A stretch of DNA of 64,000 nucleotides, from positions 1 through 64,000 of the IMG/VR virus record IMGVR_UViG_3300037067_001739; one strand, 5' to 3'. Shown here piece after piece: positions 26,073-44,599 of this stretch. Each line of letters begins with the position of its first letter. Position 1 is the stretch's first letter. Under the pieces are notes generated by a model. It had not been told where the DNA came from. It saw only the letters and a program-made list of their open reading frames with translations, and searched no databases. This DNA is from a virus (lineage: Duplodnaviria > Caudoviricetes). Both the position numbers and the translations under genes were made by a program.

Positions 26073-26146
26073 GCGTCTATAGTGTTAATATAGCATCTTA
26101 CGCTTCCAACGTAGGGGTCAGGGTTTGAGTCCCTGTAGGCGCTCCA
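26073..26146 (+). tRNA. tRNA-Gly(TCC)
   Basis: GCGTCTA/TAGGCGC acceptor, loop CTTCCAA, U73, CCA encoded. Confidence 0.85.
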
Positions 26147-26328
26147 TGAAAAATTGGTTGGATACCTTAAAAGAAGACGAGAAAAAATGTAAAAATTGCG
26201 GAACTCCCTTTTCAGGTAATGAGGAAGTTTGGGTAGCGGATGATGGCTACATTAAAGTAAAACACATTATCTGTGGCTGTGGTACAATTCTAGTATTGGA
26301 TGTATTATATAGTCAGGAGAATGATTGA
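26146..26328 (+). CDS. Small zinc-ribbon protein starting at the tRNA CCA
   Basis: CCATG overlap; CKNCG...ICGCG. Confidence 0.55.
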   Translation: MKNWLDTLKEDEKKCKNCGTPFSGNEEVWVADDGYIKVKHIICGCGTILVLDVLYSQEND

Positions 26329-26570
26329 AAGAGATACGCCTAAGACCAAGAATAGCAGAACATGATTTACAAACAAAAATTCGTGCTGTAAGACGACTCG
26401 TACTAAAAGATAAGGTTAAAGTTCAGGTCTTTTTTAAGGGACGTGAATATACTCATCTAGAGTTGGGTCTTAATGTACTGAATAGGGTTGTTGAAGAAAC
26501 AAAGGACGTTGCAAGAGTGGAATCTAGCGTTGCTAAAGACCGCTACTTTGTTGTCTTAGTGAGTGTTTAA
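26325..26570 (+). CDS. infC: Translation initiation factor IF-3, C-terminal domain only
   Basis: KEIRLRPRIAEHDLQTK...DKVKVQVFFKGRE; AGGAG RBS before a TTG start. Confidence 0.85.
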   Translation: MKEIRLRPRIAEHDLQTKIRAVRRLVLKDKVKVQVFFKGREYTHLELGLNVLNRVVEETKDVARVESSVAKDRYFVVLVSV

Positions 26571-26605
26571 GGGTGTTCAAGCCATCCCTCACACCTATTC
26601 ACAGA

Positions 26606-26678
26606 AGCGGGTAGGACAAGCGGCTAAGTCACAGTCCTCATAAGGTTTGAGGACAGGGTTCAACTCCCTGACCCGCTA
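26606..26678 (+). tRNA. tRNA with CAT anticodon (Met or Ile2); weak anticodon stem
   Basis: AGCGGGT/ACCCGCT acceptor, loop CTCATAA, T-arm CAGGG-TTCAACT-CCCTG; no CCA. Confidence 0.65.
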
Positions 26679-27444
26679 AGAAAAAGGAGAGTGAAAGTAT
26701 GGGTGTTTACGACATGCTACCGAATGGTAGTCAAGTAAAACTGTGGAACTGTGATATGGAAACCAAAGAAAAAGGTGACCATGTTCCAGATTTTGGTTTG
26801 CCTGAGTACATTGTCCTCTTGAGAGAGGGTGGATTTGTTCATGTCGAAGGCGGTGTTATTACTGATATAAGAGAGAATACCGTGACAAAATTCTATCCAG
26901 AAGATTTCCCTGGAGTTGCCTGCTTCGATAAGTGGGGTGGACGTGTAGAGGCACATGGTGACCTCATAGGTGAATTCCAAGGAATTGCGGGAATGGATGA
27001 CCCGTATTATTTTTAGGAGATACGAATGAAATACTGGAGTAATGTAGTAGTTGAAGGGCATTGCATGGGGAATGAAGACGAGGATGGCAAGAATCCTTGT
27101 GGAAGACACGTTCCCTCTCCATTCTGTTTAGGAAATGGTAGATGCGGAATTTGTCCTCATTTCGGTTGGACAGATGCTACTGAAAGAGATGCCGCTCGCT
27201 TTGTACCGCTTCGGATTATCCTTTGGGATAAGATAAAGATTTATGCGTATGAAGTTTGGTCTCATTTGGAATGGTTCTTTTGGGGTCAGCTTTGGTTCAA
27301 CAGACGTAAGATGGACGAGTTCTTCAAGAGCATAGAAGTTATACCTGATGACGACCCTTGCATGGTTCACTTCCGTAAGGAAGAGGAAAAGTCTCAGGCT
27401 AAATTTGAGAAGTGGTTTCCTAAAGCTAAAAAAGAGTGGTAAAA

Positions 27445-27714
27445 ATGCCGATATACGAGTTTGAATGTACGAAATGCGGGCATTCTGAAGACTATATACT
27501 TACCTTTGACCAAATGAAGAATAACCCCCCAAGCTGTTCCAAATGTGGTAGTCCTACAAAGTACACGTTTGGTAGAGTTCATGCTCATTATAAGGGTACT
27601 GGATTCTACACTACTGAGAAACGTGGGATTACTGGTAGAAAACGTAAACCTACAATCAAAGTAGGAAACGTTAGTGACCTACCACCAGAGGAAAGGGAGA
27701 AACATCTTGGGTGA
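27445..27714 (+). CDS. FmdB-family zinc-ribbon protein
   Basis: MPIYEFECTKCGH...CSKCG...YKGTGFYTT. Confidence 0.85.
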   Translation: MPIYEFECTKCGHSEDYILTFDQMKNNPPSCSKCGSPTKYTFGRVHAHYKGTGFYTTEKRGITGRKRKPTIKVGNVSDLPPEEREKHLG

Positions 27715-28660
27715 GTTTACTAAGGATGAACTTAGAGCTAAGTTACACGAAGCTCAAGTTCCCTATTTAGAGAGAAATAAGGAAAGGTTAGAAACGATAA
27801 AACCAAAGTGGGAAGCACATCAGGCGAATGTACCAGACATCAACAATCTTAATCCCTATATTGAGATTGCGGATGGTAAGAAAGACTTGCTAGATTTGCT
27901 GTTCTACGGTAGGATGACAATATCGAGCTTTCCGTTTAGTGGTGCAGTTGGCAGACGTATTCACTATCTGATTAGAAATAAACCAGATGGTTATGTGTTG
28001 GGTCTGGTTGTTCTTATGTCAGACTTAACTATTCCTATTCGTGATAAGCACATTGGATGGGATAGAAAACAAATGTGGCAAAGAATGAACTATTTGATGA
28101 ACGTCCACCTTGCCATTAGCACACCACCGCTTTCTCAGTATTTGACTGGTAAATTAACAGCCATATCTGTAGAAAGTAAAGAGATTCAGGATTACTTTGA
28201 AAGTAAGTATGGACATAAGTTAGCCGCAATGACTTGTACGAGTCTGTTTGGGAAGTCATCTATATACAACAGACTTCAGGGCTACGAGTATTTGGGGTTA
28301 ACGAAGGGTCACAGTGTAGCTCTTGTTCCTGTGGAAATCAAAGACAAAATGCGTGAGGACTTCAAGAAAGAGAAAGGTAAGCATTCTGAAGTCTACTACA
28401 ATGAAGATGGCACAGTAAAAGAGCGTTACGGTGTAGTTAAAGGATTCCAGAAGTTGCAGAAATATTATGATGTTCAGCAAACTGAGAATCAAAGAGGTAC
28501 GTACATTATTCCTCTAGCAGATAATTATAAAGAGTTTCTTCGTGGTGAAACAGATGATTTGAGGACATTCAATCATCCGTCATTTGAGGAACTAACTCAA
28601 CATTGGAAGGAACGTTGGTTAGATGGTCGTATCGAAAGAGTTAAAGCTGGTCTGATATGA
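27674..28660 (+). CDS. DUF4338/DruA-like domain protein
   Basis: GRRIHYLI, RDKHIGWD, GKLTA, TSLFGKSSIYNRL, LGLTKG. Confidence 0.68.
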   Translation: MTYHQRKGRNILGEFTKDELRAKLHEAQVPYLERNKERLETIKPKWEAHQANVPDINNLNPYIEIADGKKDLLDLLFYGRMTISSFPFSGAVGRRIHYLIRNKPDGYVLGLVVLMSDLTIPIRDKHIGWDRKQMWQRMNYLMNVHLAISTPPLSQYLTGKLTAISVESKEIQDYFESKYGHKLAAMTCTSLFGKSSIYNRLQGYEYLGLTKGHSVALVPVEIKDKMREDFKKEKGKHSEVYYNEDGTVKERYGVVKGFQKLQKYYDVQQTENQRGTYIIPLADNYKEFLRGETDDLRTFNHPSFEELTQHWKERWLDGRIERVKAGLI

Positions 28661-28839
28661 TAGAAGTCGAAAAAGTAGACATACCTATCACTACCTTTGG
28701 TAGCCAGAAAGAGGAACACATTGTCTTCTGGATGTGTGACGAAGGTAAAACATTTAGTAGAACAGCCGTTTTGGGACTCCTTGAAGTTTGTAAAGATTGT
28801 AAGAAAAGGTTTATATGTGCAACGGAACGGAAGTCATAA
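28657..28839 (+). CDS. Small protein with CxxCxxRFxCxT motif
   Basis: CKDCKKRFICAT. Confidence 0.55.
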   Translation: MIEVEKVDIPITTFGSQKEEHIVFWMCDEGKTFSRTAVLGLLEVCKDCKKRFICATERKS

Positions 28840-29093
28840 ACATTCACAAGTATAAGGGAAAAGATTACACATACATTGGACGTGGTTCTCCTTTTGGTAA
28901 CCCGTTCAAGATTGGTGAGGACGGCACAAGAGAAGAGGTAATTGAAAAGTTCAAGGCATACTTTAAGGAAAGACTGGAAGACCCTCTATACAAAGTGCTA
29001 GTTCTCCAACTGAGAGGCAACAAATTAGGTTGCTTTTGTAAACCTAAAGCCTGTCATGGTGACATTATAAAAGAGTGGTTGGATGGTCAATGA
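28815..29093 (+). CDS. DUF4326-type protein
   Basis: YIGRGSPFGNPF...LRGNKLGCFCKPKACHGDII. Confidence 0.85.
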   Translation: MCNGTEVINIHKYKGKDYTYIGRGSPFGNPFKIGEDGTREEVIEKFKAYFKERLEDPLYKVLVLQLRGNKLGCFCKPKACHGDIIKEWLDGQ

Positions 29094-43549: not shown

Positions 43550-43550
43550 T

Positions 43551-43636
43551 GGAGAGTTGGCAGAGCGGCTTATTGCGGTTGTCTAGAAAACAATTGAGCG
43601 AAAGCTCCAGAGGTTCAAATCCTCTACTCTCCGCCA
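43551..43636 (+). tRNA. tRNA-Ser(AGA)
   Basis: Loop CTAGAAA, long variable arm, G73, CCA. Confidence 0.88.
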
Positions 43637-43729
43637 TAGTAGAGTTGCCTCAGTGATAAGGGCGAAGTCTGGAGACACGGTTTGTCATGTTGGTTCGAGT
43701 CCAACTCAGATGGTATCATAACTCTACTA
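43637..43729 (+). ncRNA. tRNA-like structured RNA with T-arm and D-like hairpin, no CCA
   Basis: TAGTAGAGTT/AACTCTACTA closing helix; GTTGG-TTCGAGT-CCAAC T-arm. Confidence 0.6.
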
Positions 43730-43732
43730 CTT

Positions 43733-43819
43733 GGAAGGTTGGCTGAGTGGGTTAAAGCGGGCGTCTTGAAAACGTCAGGGTCAACAGCCCCGTGAGTTCG
43801 AATCTCACACCTTCCGCCA
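43733..43819 (+). tRNA. tRNA-Ser(TGA)
   Basis: Loop CTTGAAA, long variable arm, CCA. Confidence 0.92.
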
Positions 43820-43923
43820 CACCAGCACTTTTCGTAAGCAAGAGGCAGGGTAGTAAGCGAAAGCTGAAATCCCTGATGCTGGTGTATAAAGGTATGGTAT
43901 GGTTCAGATAGAGAGGTTGAATC

Positions 43924-44514
43924 ATGTCATACGAAGTTAGCAGAGACGAGATAAAAGAAGGCACGAATGTAGCGTTCCCACAGGATGGTTGCATTAGTCC
44001 ATTTTTGAGCACTATCCTCAGTTGGTTTGAGCCAGATTGGAAGAACGTAAATCCAAAGTTCTGGCACGTTGGTTTCATCGTTCACAAAGATACGATTGAG
44101 TCAGCTATAAAGAGAAACTACTTGGTTGAGGACTTTGTAGCACCTGACCCAAATGACGATGAATGGTGGGTATGTGAATCTATAACTAATGGTGTTTCAT
44201 TAACCCCTCTAAGCAAGTACGATGACACAGAGTTGAGGTTCTTTAATATCATACAGAATCAACCAACCAGAAGTAAAGTAGCGGATTATCTAGCATTCTT
44301 TGTTGGTAGACCATATGATGGTTTGGTCTATGTGTGGACGGTAGCCGCTGAGTTGCTAGAAAAAGTACGCATTCATTTAGGTAATTGGAATAACCTTTCC
44401 TTTACATGTTGGGAGAACCTAGAAGCATTCATGGACTTTATTGGTGAAGGAATGGTTAAAGATTACGACCACATTATGTGTACTGATTTCGCAAGAGCTT
44501 GGGGACTCGTTTAA
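43924..44514 (+). CDS. Possible permuted papain-like (NlpC/P60, YiiX-type) protein
   Basis: WHVGF...ES...GV...GRPYD...FTCWE, with His before Cys. Confidence 0.55.
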   Translation: MSYEVSRDEIKEGTNVAFPQDGCISPFLSTILSWFEPDWKNVNPKFWHVGFIVHKDTIESAIKRNYLVEDFVAPDPNDDEWWVCESITNGVSLTPLSKYDDTELRFFNIIQNQPTRSKVADYLAFFVGRPYDGLVYVWTVAAELLEKVRIHLGNWNNLSFTCWENLEAFMDFIGEGMVKDYDHIMCTDFARAWGLV

Positions 44515-44524
44515 TCCCCACCAT

Positions 44525-44599
44525 TGCCGAGTCGTCTAAAGGTAGGACGGTGGTCTTTGAAGCCATCTACGAGAGGTTCGAGTCCTCCCTCGGCAGCCA
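44525..44599 (+). tRNA. tRNA-Gln(TTG)
   Basis: U1-A72, loop CTTTGAA, CCA. Confidence 0.9.

What the first reader, a model, noticed from the sequence alone, without database searches (positions are those of the whole stretch)
26073..44599. tRNA-punctuated polycistron: ORF starts fused to tRNA 3' ends and ORF stops buried in the next tRNA
Seen: the A of the tRNA CCA is the A of an ATG at 26146, 31672, 33286, 34577, 35495, 40396 and 41746. At 35028, 39953 and 42767 the pattern is discriminator-C-ATG. At 32681, 32954, 36016 and 36903 the ATG is 1-2 nt after the CCA. None of these ORFs has room for a normal leader, since the upstream sequence is the T-arm and acceptor stem. Stop codons lie inside the following tRNA at 31989, 32866, 34517, 35429, 36333, 37819, 39179 and 42693, and ORF 33286-33738 reads through an entire tRNA. 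The other spacers are filled by closed structured RNAs. The phage also encodes an RNase P RNA, a CCA enzyme, an IF3 C-domain and bS21. Inference: tRNA processing acts as a mitochondria-like punctuation system. Cleavage after the discriminator would release near-leaderless mRNAs ((C)CAUG...), and RNase P cleavage would remove their stop codons, coupling protein output to tRNA maturation. Caveat: CCATG also precedes some tRNA or tRNA-like genes (31593, 32290, 35743), so part of the pattern may be simple compaction.
Basis: partly seen in the sequence, partly recalled or inferred. Interest (0 to 1): 0.82.

Follow-up and report, generated by a model that had tools for sequence, protein, structure and literature searches.

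The report
Phage genes starting on tRNA ends
In this uncultured ~134-kb phage and three relatives, about a third of the tRNA genes run straight into the start codon of a real small gene that has no ribosome-binding site, so cutting out the tRNA probably frees an almost leaderless message, as in mitochondria; no RNA data exist to show it.

Summary
All 14 listed junctions are at the stated coordinates. Twelve of 37 tRNAs are followed within 1-7 nt of the discriminator by an ATG opening an ORF of 50 aa or more (about 1.1 expected, p=4e-10). Pfam alignments that begin at residue 1-8 and orthologues aligned from residue 1 show that several of these ATGs are true starts.

Three syntenic relatives follow the same rule (39 of 52 tRNA-proximal ORFs). 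Non-homologous genes sitting in the same tRNA slot are still fused. Phage T5 has no fused starts; its starts lie 17-38 nt downstream and are SD-led.

- The array is not one polycistron: five near-perfect sigma-70 promoters lie inside it.
- Stop codons inside the next tRNA are ordinary, because T5 has them too.
- New supporting evidence: in these four genomes 14 of 57 consensus promoters sit 3-10 nt before an ATG (null 6%). Leaderless-type messages therefore look like a normal expression mode of this phage family.

Cleavage and translation remain inferred. No RNA run was listed and the host is unknown.

This scan has reported the same phenomenon before on other DNA (at least seven other phage genomes and one CPR bacterium). 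I found no paper describing it in phages.

The parts
26073..44599 (+). tRNA/ORF/ncRNA array: 37 tRNA genes covering all 20 amino acids, interleaved with small genes
25545..25573 (+). consensus sigma-70 promoter (12/12, TGn) upstream of tRNA-Gly(tcc)
30970..30998 (+). consensus promoter (12/12, TGn) upstream of tRNA-Val/Ile/Val
32073..32101 (+). consensus promoter (12/12, TGn). The expected transcription start is 2-3 nt before tRNA-Lys(ttt). It is the nearest consensus promoter for the ten fused ORFs (those at 7 nt or less) from 32681 to 36903.
37898..37926 (+). promoter (11/12). The ORF start GTG 37937 lies 10 nt after the -10 box. Its G006 orthologue has an ATG 6 nt after a -10 box.
39268..39296 (+). 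consensus promoter (12/12, TGn) with the SD-led ORF 39334
26146..26328 (+). 60-aa ORF; its ATG shares A76 of tRNA-Gly(tcc); no family hit
31672..31989 (+). HNH endonuclease gene. Its ATG shares A76 of tRNA-Thr(ggt) and its stop lies 13 nt inside tRNA-Ser(gct). The G009 orthologue (67% identity) is SD-led.
32681..32866 (+). 61-aa ORF, ATG 2 nt after the CCA of tRNA-Glu(ctc); its stop is the U8-A9-G10 of tRNA-Ile(tat)
32954..33208 (+). 84-aa Cys-motif protein, ATG 1 nt after the CCA of tRNA-Ile(tat). The fused orthologue in G009 (46% identity) aligns from residue 1.
33286..33738 (+). 150-aa ORF; its ATG shares A76 of tRNA-Arg(acg); the last ~31 codons read through tRNA-Arg(tct)
34116..34517 (+). 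133-aa Cys-motif protein, ATG 6 nt after the CCA of tRNA-Leu(tag). G006 orthologue at 57% identity. Stop inside tRNA-Asp.
34577..34870 (+). 97-aa Cys-motif protein; its ATG shares A76 of tRNA-Asp
35028..35429 (+). PD-(D/E)XK endonuclease (PDDEXK_5, residues 1-130 on profile 1-135). Junction is N73-C-ATG after tRNA-Cys. Stop inside tRNA-Asn.
35495..35665 (+). 56-aa Cys-motif protein; its ATG shares A76 of tRNA-Asn
36016..36333 (+). 105-aa Cys-motif protein, ATG 2 nt after the CCA of tRNA-Gln(ctg). Fused orthologue in G008 at 32% identity. Stop inside tRNA-Leu(aag).
36402..36823 (+). phage RNase P RNA (class A), flanked by tRNA-Leu(aag) and tRNA-His
36903..37346 (+). NADAR-domain gene (residues 6-140 on profile 7-161), ATG 2 nt after the CCA of tRNA-His
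39953..40306 (+). HNH endonuclease, N73-C-ATG after tRNA-Phe
40396..40527 (+). 43-aa ORF sharing A76 of tRNA-Tyr; unsupported as a gene
41154..41276 (+).
41746..41970 (+). 74-aa Cys-motif protein sharing A76 of the second tRNA-Pro. G006 has the identical CCATG junction and a 72%-identical protein.
42767..43234 (+). NUDIX hydrolase gene, N73-C-ATG after tRNA-Thr(cgt)
45727..47076 (-). CCA-adding-enzyme family gene (PolyA_pol head domain, 116 bits)
26325..26570 (+). IF3 C-terminal-domain protein (81 aa)
29960..30259 (+). ribosomal protein bS21 homologue

Best explanation
This is a phage tRNA gene region of the T4/T5 type: tRNAs, homing-endonuclease genes, small accessory genes, stable RNAs and several strong promoters. 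It differs in having dropped the usual 13-35-nt SD-bearing spacer between a tRNA and the gene that follows it.

Shown from sequence:
- Real genes begin 0-3 nt beyond the encoded 3' end of a tRNA, or share its A76.
- They lack an SD and use ATG.
- They must be co-transcribed with the tRNA from promoters 0.6-4.8 kb upstream.

Inferred, and my favoured reading: a host endonuclease acting at the tRNA 3' end (RNase Z/BN-like, cutting at or just after the discriminator or CCA) separates the tRNA from a message with a leader of 0-5 nt. That message is translated in the leaderless mode. The same phage family appears to use this mode for genes whose ATG lies 3-10 nt after a consensus -10 box. Where the cut removes A76 or CCA, a CCA-adding enzyme (the phage encodes one) restores it.

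Stop codons lying inside the next tRNA are borrowed stops produced by tight packing. They are not a regulatory device.
For: Real starts:
- PDDEXK_5 aligns residues 1-130 to profile 1-135 and NADAR aligns 6-140 to 7-161.
- Only two of the 16 ORFs (32954 and 33286) have any in-frame SD-led start in the first 40 codons, and those use GTG or TTG.
- Fused orthologues align from residue 1-4: Ile-tat ORF in G000/G009 at 46%, Pro ORF in G000/G006 at 72%, Gln ORF in G000/G008 at 32%.

A rule, not an accident:
- G000 has 12 of 17 tRNA-proximal ORFs at 1-7 nt after the discriminator, and the relatives have 39 of 52. All are ATG.
- The Cys, His, Asn and Glu-ctc slots carry non-homologous ORFs in all four genomes, and every one of them is fused.
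- The same HNH gene is CCATG-fused in G000 and SD-led in G009.
- T5 has no fused starts, and three unrelated arrays also have none.
- Other unrelated arrays have fused starts, with Pfam alignments from profile position 2-3. This includes CCA-less arrays with N73-(A/U)-AUG, the classical RNase Z substrate form.

No SD, with signs of compensation:
- SD-like motifs occur in 2/16 fused ORFs against 78/164 long ORFs (p=0.0075).
- A is enriched at +4, +5 and +7 (p=0.02, 0.013, 0.008).

Leaderless mode elsewhere in the family:
- 14 of 57 consensus promoters lie 3-10 nt before a first-in-frame ATG, against a null of 6.2% (p=7.5e-6).
- Two such arrangements are conserved between G000 and G006 at 51-57% protein identity.
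- T5, L068 and L079 show only 24-31 nt spacings, plus one T5 case at 73 nt.

Forced cleavage:
- tRNA-Cys and tRNA-Phe are the phage's only tRNAs for those amino acids, and they are encoded as N73-C-AUG. They can mature only if the trailer, which is the message, is removed and CCA is added.
Against: - No RNA ends or ribosome data were available.
- The host is unknown, so neither an RNase Z pathway nor leaderless competence of the host is established.
- The phage record holds no RNase Z-like metallo-beta-lactamase and no RnpA.
- 28 of 37 tRNAs encode CCA. In E. coli-type maturation (own knowledge) this goes with an RNase E cut downstream followed by 3' exonuclease trimming, which would destroy the message.
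- In CCAUG junctions one transcript cannot give both an intact CCA and an intact AUG without repair.
- Leaders of 1-5 nt are poorer than a true 5'-terminal AUG in E. coli (own knowledge).
- About half of the long ORFs also lack a recognisable SD, so SD-independent internal initiation may be common in this system.
- Promoter matches are consensus hits, not mapped transcription start sites.
- The CCA enzyme is needed anyway for nine CCA-less tRNAs.
Confidence: 0.5

Rival explanations
1. The genes are translated from the uncut tRNA-mRNA precursor. A 30S subunit loads on the A-rich, unstructured stretch just 3' of the folded tRNA, without an SD. tRNA maturation and translation are alternative or successive fates of each transcript. 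The fusion exists simply because an SD cannot be embedded in a tRNA and is dispensable in this host.
For: - Roughly half of the long ORFs lack an SD-like motif.
- A is enriched and G+C is low at +4 to +24 of fused ORFs (0.29 against 0.36 G+C), as expected for SD-independent initiation.
- Nine G000 ORFs need an uncleaved downstream tRNA to reach their stop codon, so at least their 3' side is read on unprocessed RNA.
- T5 endonuclease genes overlap tRNAs in the same way.
- The encoded CCA on most tRNAs argues for exonucleolytic 3' maturation.
Against: - The start codon sits 0-3 nt from a stable 7+5-bp coaxial helix, inside the 30S footprint.
- All 51 fused starts in the family are ATG.
- Leader lengths match those implied by the promoter-proximal ATG class.
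- CCA-less single-copy tRNAs (Cys, Phe) must be cut at exactly this junction.
Confidence: 0.28
2. This is mere compaction and cassette turnover. Selfish homing-endonuclease genes and small accessory genes are swapped between phages by recombination in the conserved flanking tRNAs. Junctions are inherited with the cassettes, and expression is weak or irrelevant.
For: - Three of the fused genes are HNH or PD-(D/E)XK endonucleases.
- Gene content per slot turns over between relatives.
- SegB and the T5 heg genes show that tRNA regions are homing-endonuclease hot spots (PMC2330249 abstract).
- A 1-nt CCA/ATG overlap is the tightest packing that leaves both elements intact.
Against: - Orthologous fused proteins persist at 32-72% identity with intact frames.
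- NUDIX and NADAR genes and the conserved Cys-motif family are not selfish nucleases.
- T5 is equally compact at ORF 3' ends yet keeps SD spacers.
- Offsets differ between relatives (CCATG, CCAATG, CCANNATG), so the junctions have been remodelled while staying within 0-3 nt.
Confidence: 0.12
3. One reading: a single tRNA-punctuated polycistron in which RNase P (boosted by the phage RNase P RNA) deliberately strips stop codons, coupling protein output to tRNA maturation.
For: - Nine ORFs end inside the next tRNA.
- The phage encodes an RNase P RNA.
- The frequency of buried stops is two to three times that of other arrays (24-34% against 13%).
Against: - Five near-perfect promoters lie within the array.
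- Buried stops occur in T5 and at 42/326 tRNAs of unrelated arrays.
- Four of the eight listed stops are simply the conserved U8-A9-G10 read as TAG.
- Non-stop messages would be a cost (trans-translation; own knowledge), and no phage tmRNA was found by ARAGORN.
Confidence: 0.08

Closest known systems
Animal mitochondrial tRNA punctuation (RNase P plus RNase Z/ELAC2; reviewed in PMC3790967, PMC8601606)
   Same: tRNAs directly flank coding regions. There is no room for leaders or promoters. Excision of the tRNA would create the mRNA 5' end, and the resulting mRNAs would be leaderless or nearly so.
   Different: Here several internal promoters exist. Stop codons are complete but lie inside the next tRNA, rather than being finished by polyadenylation. 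Most tRNAs encode CCA, sometimes sharing A76 with the AUG. Processing has not been demonstrated.
t-elements (tRNA-like structures) that define mRNA ends in plant mitochondria (PMC1920247); the engineered use of t-elements with RNase P/tRNase Z in Haloferax (PMC4946936)
   Same: tRNA-processing enzymes are used to generate the exact ends of non-tRNA RNAs.
   Different: Those are tRNA mimics in organelles or archaea. Here bona fide tRNAs of a bacterial virus serve, and the downstream product is a protein-coding message.
tRNA gene region of phage T5 (NC_005859 annotation) and of T4 (segB; PMC2330249)
   Same: Clusters of tRNAs are interleaved with HNH or GIY-YIG endonuclease genes, small ORFs, multiple strong promoters and stable RNAs of unknown function. 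ORF stops overlap the following tRNA.
   Different: In T5 every tRNA-proximal ORF starts 17-38 nt after the discriminator and has an SD. In this phage family about three quarters start within 7 nt without one.
Bacterial leaderless mRNAs made by transcription initiation at the AUG (own knowledge)
   Same: A 0-3-nt leader, no SD and ATG only. The same genomes carry a class of -10 boxes 3-10 nt upstream of ATGs.
   Different: A processed message would carry a 5' monophosphate or hydroxyl rather than a triphosphate, and would often have 1-5 extra nucleotides.

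Membership tests
tRNA punctuation (mitochondrial type) | Coding regions immediately flanked by tRNA genes, with no intergenic leader | tested here: met
   12-16 of 37 tRNAs abut an ATG at 1-7 nt after the discriminator, and 9 ORFs end inside the next tRNA
tRNA punctuation (mitochondrial type) | One or two genome-length polycistronic transcripts | tested here: not met
   Five near-consensus promoters lie inside the array. Units of up to about 5.8 kb still hold many tRNAs and ORFs.
tRNA punctuation (mitochondrial type) | RNase P and RNase Z cleavages release the mRNAs | not testable with these tools
   No RNA run was listed. The phage has an RNase P RNA but no RNase Z-like gene.
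tRNA punctuation (mitochondrial type) | Incomplete stop codons completed by polyadenylation | tested here: not met
   All ORFs have complete stops. Where these overlap a tRNA they lie inside it.
Phage T4/T5-type tRNA gene region | tRNA cluster interleaved with homing-endonuclease genes, small ORFs, strong promoters and stable RNAs | tested here: met
   HNH x2 and PDDEXK_5, promoters, RNase P RNA and tRNA-like elements; compared with the T5 annotation
Phage T4/T5-type tRNA gene region | Genes following tRNAs keep an SD-bearing spacer | tested here: not met
   T5 starts at 17-38 nt. In G000 12 of 17 start within 7 nt, and SD-like motifs occur in 2/16.
Leaderless mRNA genes | AUG at or within a few nt of the mRNA 5' end, no SD, AUG strongly preferred | tested here: inconclusive
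   No SD, and all 51 fused starts in the family are ATG. The 5' end itself is only inferred. A promoter-proximal ATG class is present.

The most novel reading that the evidence does not exclude
This phage family runs a dedicated leaderless-translation programme. Messages with 0-3-nt leaders are produced in two interchangeable ways: by placing a consensus promoter 6-9 nt before the ATG, or by excising an upstream tRNA. The phage's own RNase P RNA, CCA-adding enzyme (restoring A76 or CCA sacrificed to the AUG), IF3 C-domain and bS21 would retune host RNA processing and ribosomes towards these messages, so that tRNA supply and accessory-gene expression are produced stoichiometrically from the same transcripts.
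Probability: 0.15. Interest if true: 0.85.

Novelty: new variant of a known kind. Interest (0 to 1): 0.62.

Why it matters
If tRNA excision really creates translatable messages in bacterial viruses, the mitochondrial 'punctuation' principle is not an organellar oddity. It would be a recurrent solution in compact prokaryotic-type genomes.

It would also give a natural system for studying three things: translation of processed (non-triphosphate) leaderless mRNAs, the competition between tRNA 3' maturation pathways, and the role of phage-encoded translation factors.

There is a practical point for annotation. Gene callers that demand an SD, or that forbid overlap with tRNAs, will mis-start or miss these genes. 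Full-text searches of the held library found no paper describing this in phages.

Tried and rejected
- RNA evidence: no RNA holder was listed for window 31100-41000, so read laying could not be used.
- Megablast of the array against 50,697 phage records gave no match. The DNA polymerase is under 31% identical to any cultured phage, so no cultured relative with transcriptomics is available.
- Host inference from the phage PanD gene failed. The best bacterial homologues are at most 57% identical and are spread over Chloroflexota, Actinomycetota, Ignavibacteria and Xanthomonadales.
- NADAR start context across 71 loci: only three have a tRNA within 40 nt upstream (one fused, two at 18-21 nt). This is too few to be informative.
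- A hidden SD in the acceptor stem is rejected. Only tRNA-Arg(acg) and tRNA-Gln(ctg) give GGAG at a suitable distance.
- A promoter inside the tRNA that would start transcription at A76 is rejected on geometry. The T-loop TTCGAAT lies about 16 nt too far upstream (sequence inspection).
- Downstream SD-led alternative starts were found only in the ORFs at 32954 (GTG, codon 30) and 33286 (TTG, codon 22).
- The structure z-scores of the spacers did not clearly separate them from coding controls.
- The terminator-like scan was at chance level (17 found against 14.3±3.6).
- The first shuffle script timed out, and one findings query was malformed.

Full report
WHAT IS THERE

The window is the first 64 kb of a 134,397-bp IMG/VR virus record estimated at about 90% complete. 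ARAGORN finds 37 tRNA genes on the + strand between 26073 and 44599, covering all 20 amino acids. Rfam confirms them, adds a tRNA-like element at 32187-32287, and finds a class-A RNase P RNA at 36402-36823 (175.6 bits). GC skew changes sign near 44-45 kb, where the coding strand switches.

CHECKING THE OBSERVATION

- CCA|TG, with A76 as the A of the ATG: 26146, 31672, 33286, 34577, 35495, 40396 and 41746. There is one more at 41154.
- N73-C-ATG: 35028, 39953 and 42767.
- ATG 1-2 nt after CCA: 32681, 32954, 36016 and 36903.

The ORF ends confirm the eight stops inside the next tRNA. Four of them end exactly 9 nt into the tRNA, which means they are the conserved U8-A9-G10 read as TAG. ORF 33286-33738 is open across tRNA-Arg(tct).

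Against a random-anchor null on the same strand, 12 of 37 tRNAs with an ATG-ORF of 50 aa or more within 7 nt compares with 1.1 expected (p=4e-10). CCATG follows 9 of 28 encoded CCAs, against 5.8% of all CCA sites (p=1.8e-5).

The claim that the remaining spacers are closed structured RNAs is only partly supported. Shuffle z-scores run from -0.7 to -5.7, against -0.95 to -2.7 for coding controls.

ARE THE ORFs GENES, AND ARE THESE THEIR STARTS?

Pfam and PHROG identify the following:
- HNH endonucleases at 31672 and 39953;
- a PD-(D/E)XK endonuclease at 35028, residues 1-130 aligned to profile positions 1-135;
- a NUDIX hydrolase at 42767;
- a NADAR protein at 36903, residues 6-140 on profile 7-161.

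Seven further ORFs of the array (six of them fused) carry the CxxCxx(R/K)(F/W/Y)xC(F/W/Y) motif that recurs about 55 times in the genome. Only two ORFs have any in-frame SD-led alternative start, and those use GTG or TTG. The smallest ORFs (26146, 32681, 40396, 41154) remain unsupported as genes.

RELATIVES

A 20-nt pattern from the RNase P RNA retrieved four IMG/VR contigs. Three of them share the G000 tRNA order: G008 (152,753 bp), G006 (54,666 bp) and G009 (138,618 bp, with terminal repeats).

In these relatives 39 of 52 tRNA-proximal ORFs of 50 aa or more start 1-7 nt after the discriminator, and all use ATG. The exact offset drifts between genomes. G000 and G006 favour CCATG, G008 favours CCAATG, and G009 favours CCA-NN-ATG.

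Orthologous fused genes align from their first residues:
- the ORF after tRNA-Ile(tat), 46% identity;
- the ORF after tRNA-Pro, 72%, with an identical junction;
- the ORF after tRNA-Gln(ctg), 32%;
- the ORF after tRNA-Tyr (G008/G006), 47%.

The most telling result is the slot table. After tRNA-Cys, tRNA-His, tRNA-Asn and tRNA-Glu(ctc), all four genomes carry mutually non-homologous ORFs, yet every one is fused. The converse also occurs. The HNH gene that is CCATG-fused in G000 is SD-led (GGAGG-7-ATG, about 35 nt after a tRNA-like 3' end) in G009, at 67% identity. The fused state is therefore a rule of this array. It has been maintained or re-created through gene replacement and is interconvertible with a conventional start.

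IS THIS JUST WHAT DENSE PHAGE tRNA ARRAYS LOOK LIKE?

No for the starts, yes for the stops.

Phage T5, whose tRNA region has the same general anatomy (HNH genes, small ORFs, many promoters, stable RNAs), places every tRNA-proximal start 17-38 nt after the discriminator, behind an SD. Several uncultivated arrays obtained through the NADAR gene have no fused start either (L052, L068, L079).

Others do have them: 30 of 124 tRNA-proximal ORFs overall. Pfam alignments from profile position 2-3 confirm the starts for 2OG-Fe(II) oxygenase, PDDEXK_5, DUF7277 and NADAR genes. In CCA-less arrays the form is N73-(A/U)-AUG or N73-C-AUG.

By contrast, stops inside the next tRNA occur in T5 (hegC, hegD, T5.069, T5.057) and at 42 of 326 tRNAs in unrelated arrays. 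The figures for this family are 9 of 37 in G000 and 30 of 89 in the relatives. The feature is commoner here but not distinctive.

NOT ONE POLYCISTRON

Perfect 12/12 sigma-70 promoters with an extended -10 lie at 25545, 30970, 32073 and 39268, and an 11/12 one at 37898. The ten fused ORFs (those at 7 nt or less) between 32681 and 36903 nevertheless lie 0.6-4.8 kb from the nearest of these. No intervening + strand match reaches 10/12, so they must be co-transcribed with tRNAs.

HOW ARE THEY TRANSLATED?

An SD-like 4-mer precedes 78 of 164 long ORFs (background 9%) but only 2 of 16 fused ORFs (p=0.0075). Fused ORFs are enriched for A at +4, +5 and +7 and are poorer in G+C over +4 to +24.

A new line of evidence comes from promoters. 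I took the near-consensus promoters in the four genomes that are followed by a first-in-frame ATG ORF of 50 aa or more. There are 57 of them.
- 14 have the ATG only 3-10 nt after the -10 hexamer. With a start site about 7 nt downstream, that means a leader of 0-3 nt.
- 3 lie at 11-17 nt.
- 33 lie at 18-45 nt.

A random-anchor null gives 6.2% for the first class (p=7.5e-6). Two such arrangements are conserved between G000 and G006 at 51% and 57% protein identity. One of them is the array gene after tRNA-Gly(gcc). T5, L068 and L079 show only 24-31 nt spacings, plus one T5 case at 73 nt.

Leaderless-type messages therefore appear to be a regular expression mode of this phage family. The leader lengths implied by promoters match those that tRNA 3' cleavage would leave.

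There is also a logical argument. tRNA-Cys and tRNA-Phe are the phage's only tRNAs for those amino acids and are encoded as N73-C-AUG. They can become functional only if the trailer, which is the message, is cut off and CCA is added.

CAVEATS

- Nothing here shows a cleavage or a translated product. No RNA run was listed, and the host could not be inferred.
- The phage encodes an RNase P RNA and a CCA-adding-enzyme homologue, but no RnpA and no RNase Z-like protein.
- Most tRNAs encode CCA. In E. coli-type maturation (own knowledge) this goes with a downstream RNase E cut and exonucleolytic trimming, which would destroy the adjacent message.
- A CCAUG junction cannot yield both an intact CCA and an intact AUG from one molecule unless A76 is re-added.
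- The CCA enzyme is in any case needed for nine CCA-less tRNAs, so it is not specific evidence for the model.
- Internal SD-independent initiation on uncut precursors remains a serious rival.
- IF3_C (26325-26570) and bS21 (29960-30259) are present, but their relevance is speculation.

COMPARISON AND NOVELTY

The architecture works like mitochondrial tRNA punctuation (PMC3790967, PMC8601606) and like t-element-defined mRNA ends in plant mitochondria (PMC1920247). It fails two membership features of the mitochondrial system: genome-length transcripts, and stops completed by polyadenylation.

It is a T4/T5-type phage tRNA region (PMC2330249) that has lost the SD spacers.

Full-text searches found no paper on tRNA-fused starts or on phage-encoded RNase P RNA.

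Within this scan the same phenomenon has already been reported for at least seven other phage genomes and a CPR bacterium. One of those, a '153-kb phage', may be G008. These are unchecked AI notes and are not independent evidence.

VERDICT

The most likely mechanism is tRNA-3'-processing-generated, nearly leaderless messages (confidence about 0.5). This is a new variant of a known kind, of moderate to high interest, awaiting RNA-end and ribosome data.

Noticed in passing
whole genome G000; in the window e.g. 17074, 25227, 32993, 34182, 34829, 35549, 36085, 37994, 40676, 41923, 45064-61668 (minus strand): The peptide motif C-x2-C-x2-(R/K)-(F/W/Y)-x-C-(F/W/Y)-(T) occurs about 55 times in otherwise unrelated ORFs, at N-terminal, internal or extreme C-terminal positions. 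It is also present in the relatives' array ORFs. Its meaning is unknown.
   Followed up: partly
window 36402-36823; G002:82201-82407; G005:39985-40339; G006:32834-33193; G007:461-767; G008:67420-67823; G009:121881-122635: RNase P RNA genes recur inside phage tRNA arrays of several unrelated IMG/VR contigs, some of them reduced to 207-307 nt. The G000 copy is 422 nt against a 367-nt model and contains a 43-aa ORF (36517-36648) in an insertion. No RnpA gene was found in G000, and no paper on phage-encoded RNase P RNA was found.
   Followed up: partly
G000 61749 (minus), 82465 (minus), 95800 (minus), 106570 (+); window 25286-25321 and 37898-37937; G006, G008, G009 (one search list): There is a class of near-consensus TGnTATAAT promoters whose -10 box ends 3-10 nt before an ATG start. 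These are candidate leaderless genes: 14 of 57 against a 6% null. Two are conserved between G000 and G006.
   Followed up: yes
window 32857-32952; G008, G006 and G009 orthologues: tRNA-Ile(tat) is 93-96 nt long in all four related phages. This looks like a conserved insertion of about 20 nt, possibly an intron or enlarged variable region.
   Followed up: no
window 32187-32287, ~35746-35861, ~31510-31593, 41429-41528: Several tRNA-like elements are missed by ARAGORN. One has a long insertion (Rfam tRNA, 41.6 bits). Others end in ..CCA followed by U and then the next tRNA. There is a weak tmRNA-like Rfam hit (15.4 bits, E=0.012).
   Followed up: no
window, all 28 tRNAs with an encoded CCA: The base after the encoded CCA (N77) is T in about 15 of 28 cases (my count). 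In T5 it is A in 22 of 23 tRNAs, within the motif CCAA(A/T)TT. This suggests different 3'-trailer processing signals in the two systems.
   Followed up: no
window 27674-28660, 29075-29509, 37324-37647: Genes inside or beside the array include a DruA-like protein (Druantia family, 92.9 bits), an archaeal-Holliday-junction-resolvase-like endonuclease, and an aspartate decarboxylase (PanD, 127 bits).
   Followed up: no
window 34109-34150; G006 array after tRNA-Leu(tag): At the tRNA-Leu(tag) junction a short out-of-frame ATG (13 codons in G000) lies between the CCA and the real ATG of a conserved 133-aa gene, in both G000 and G006. This may be a mini-uORF.
   Followed up: no
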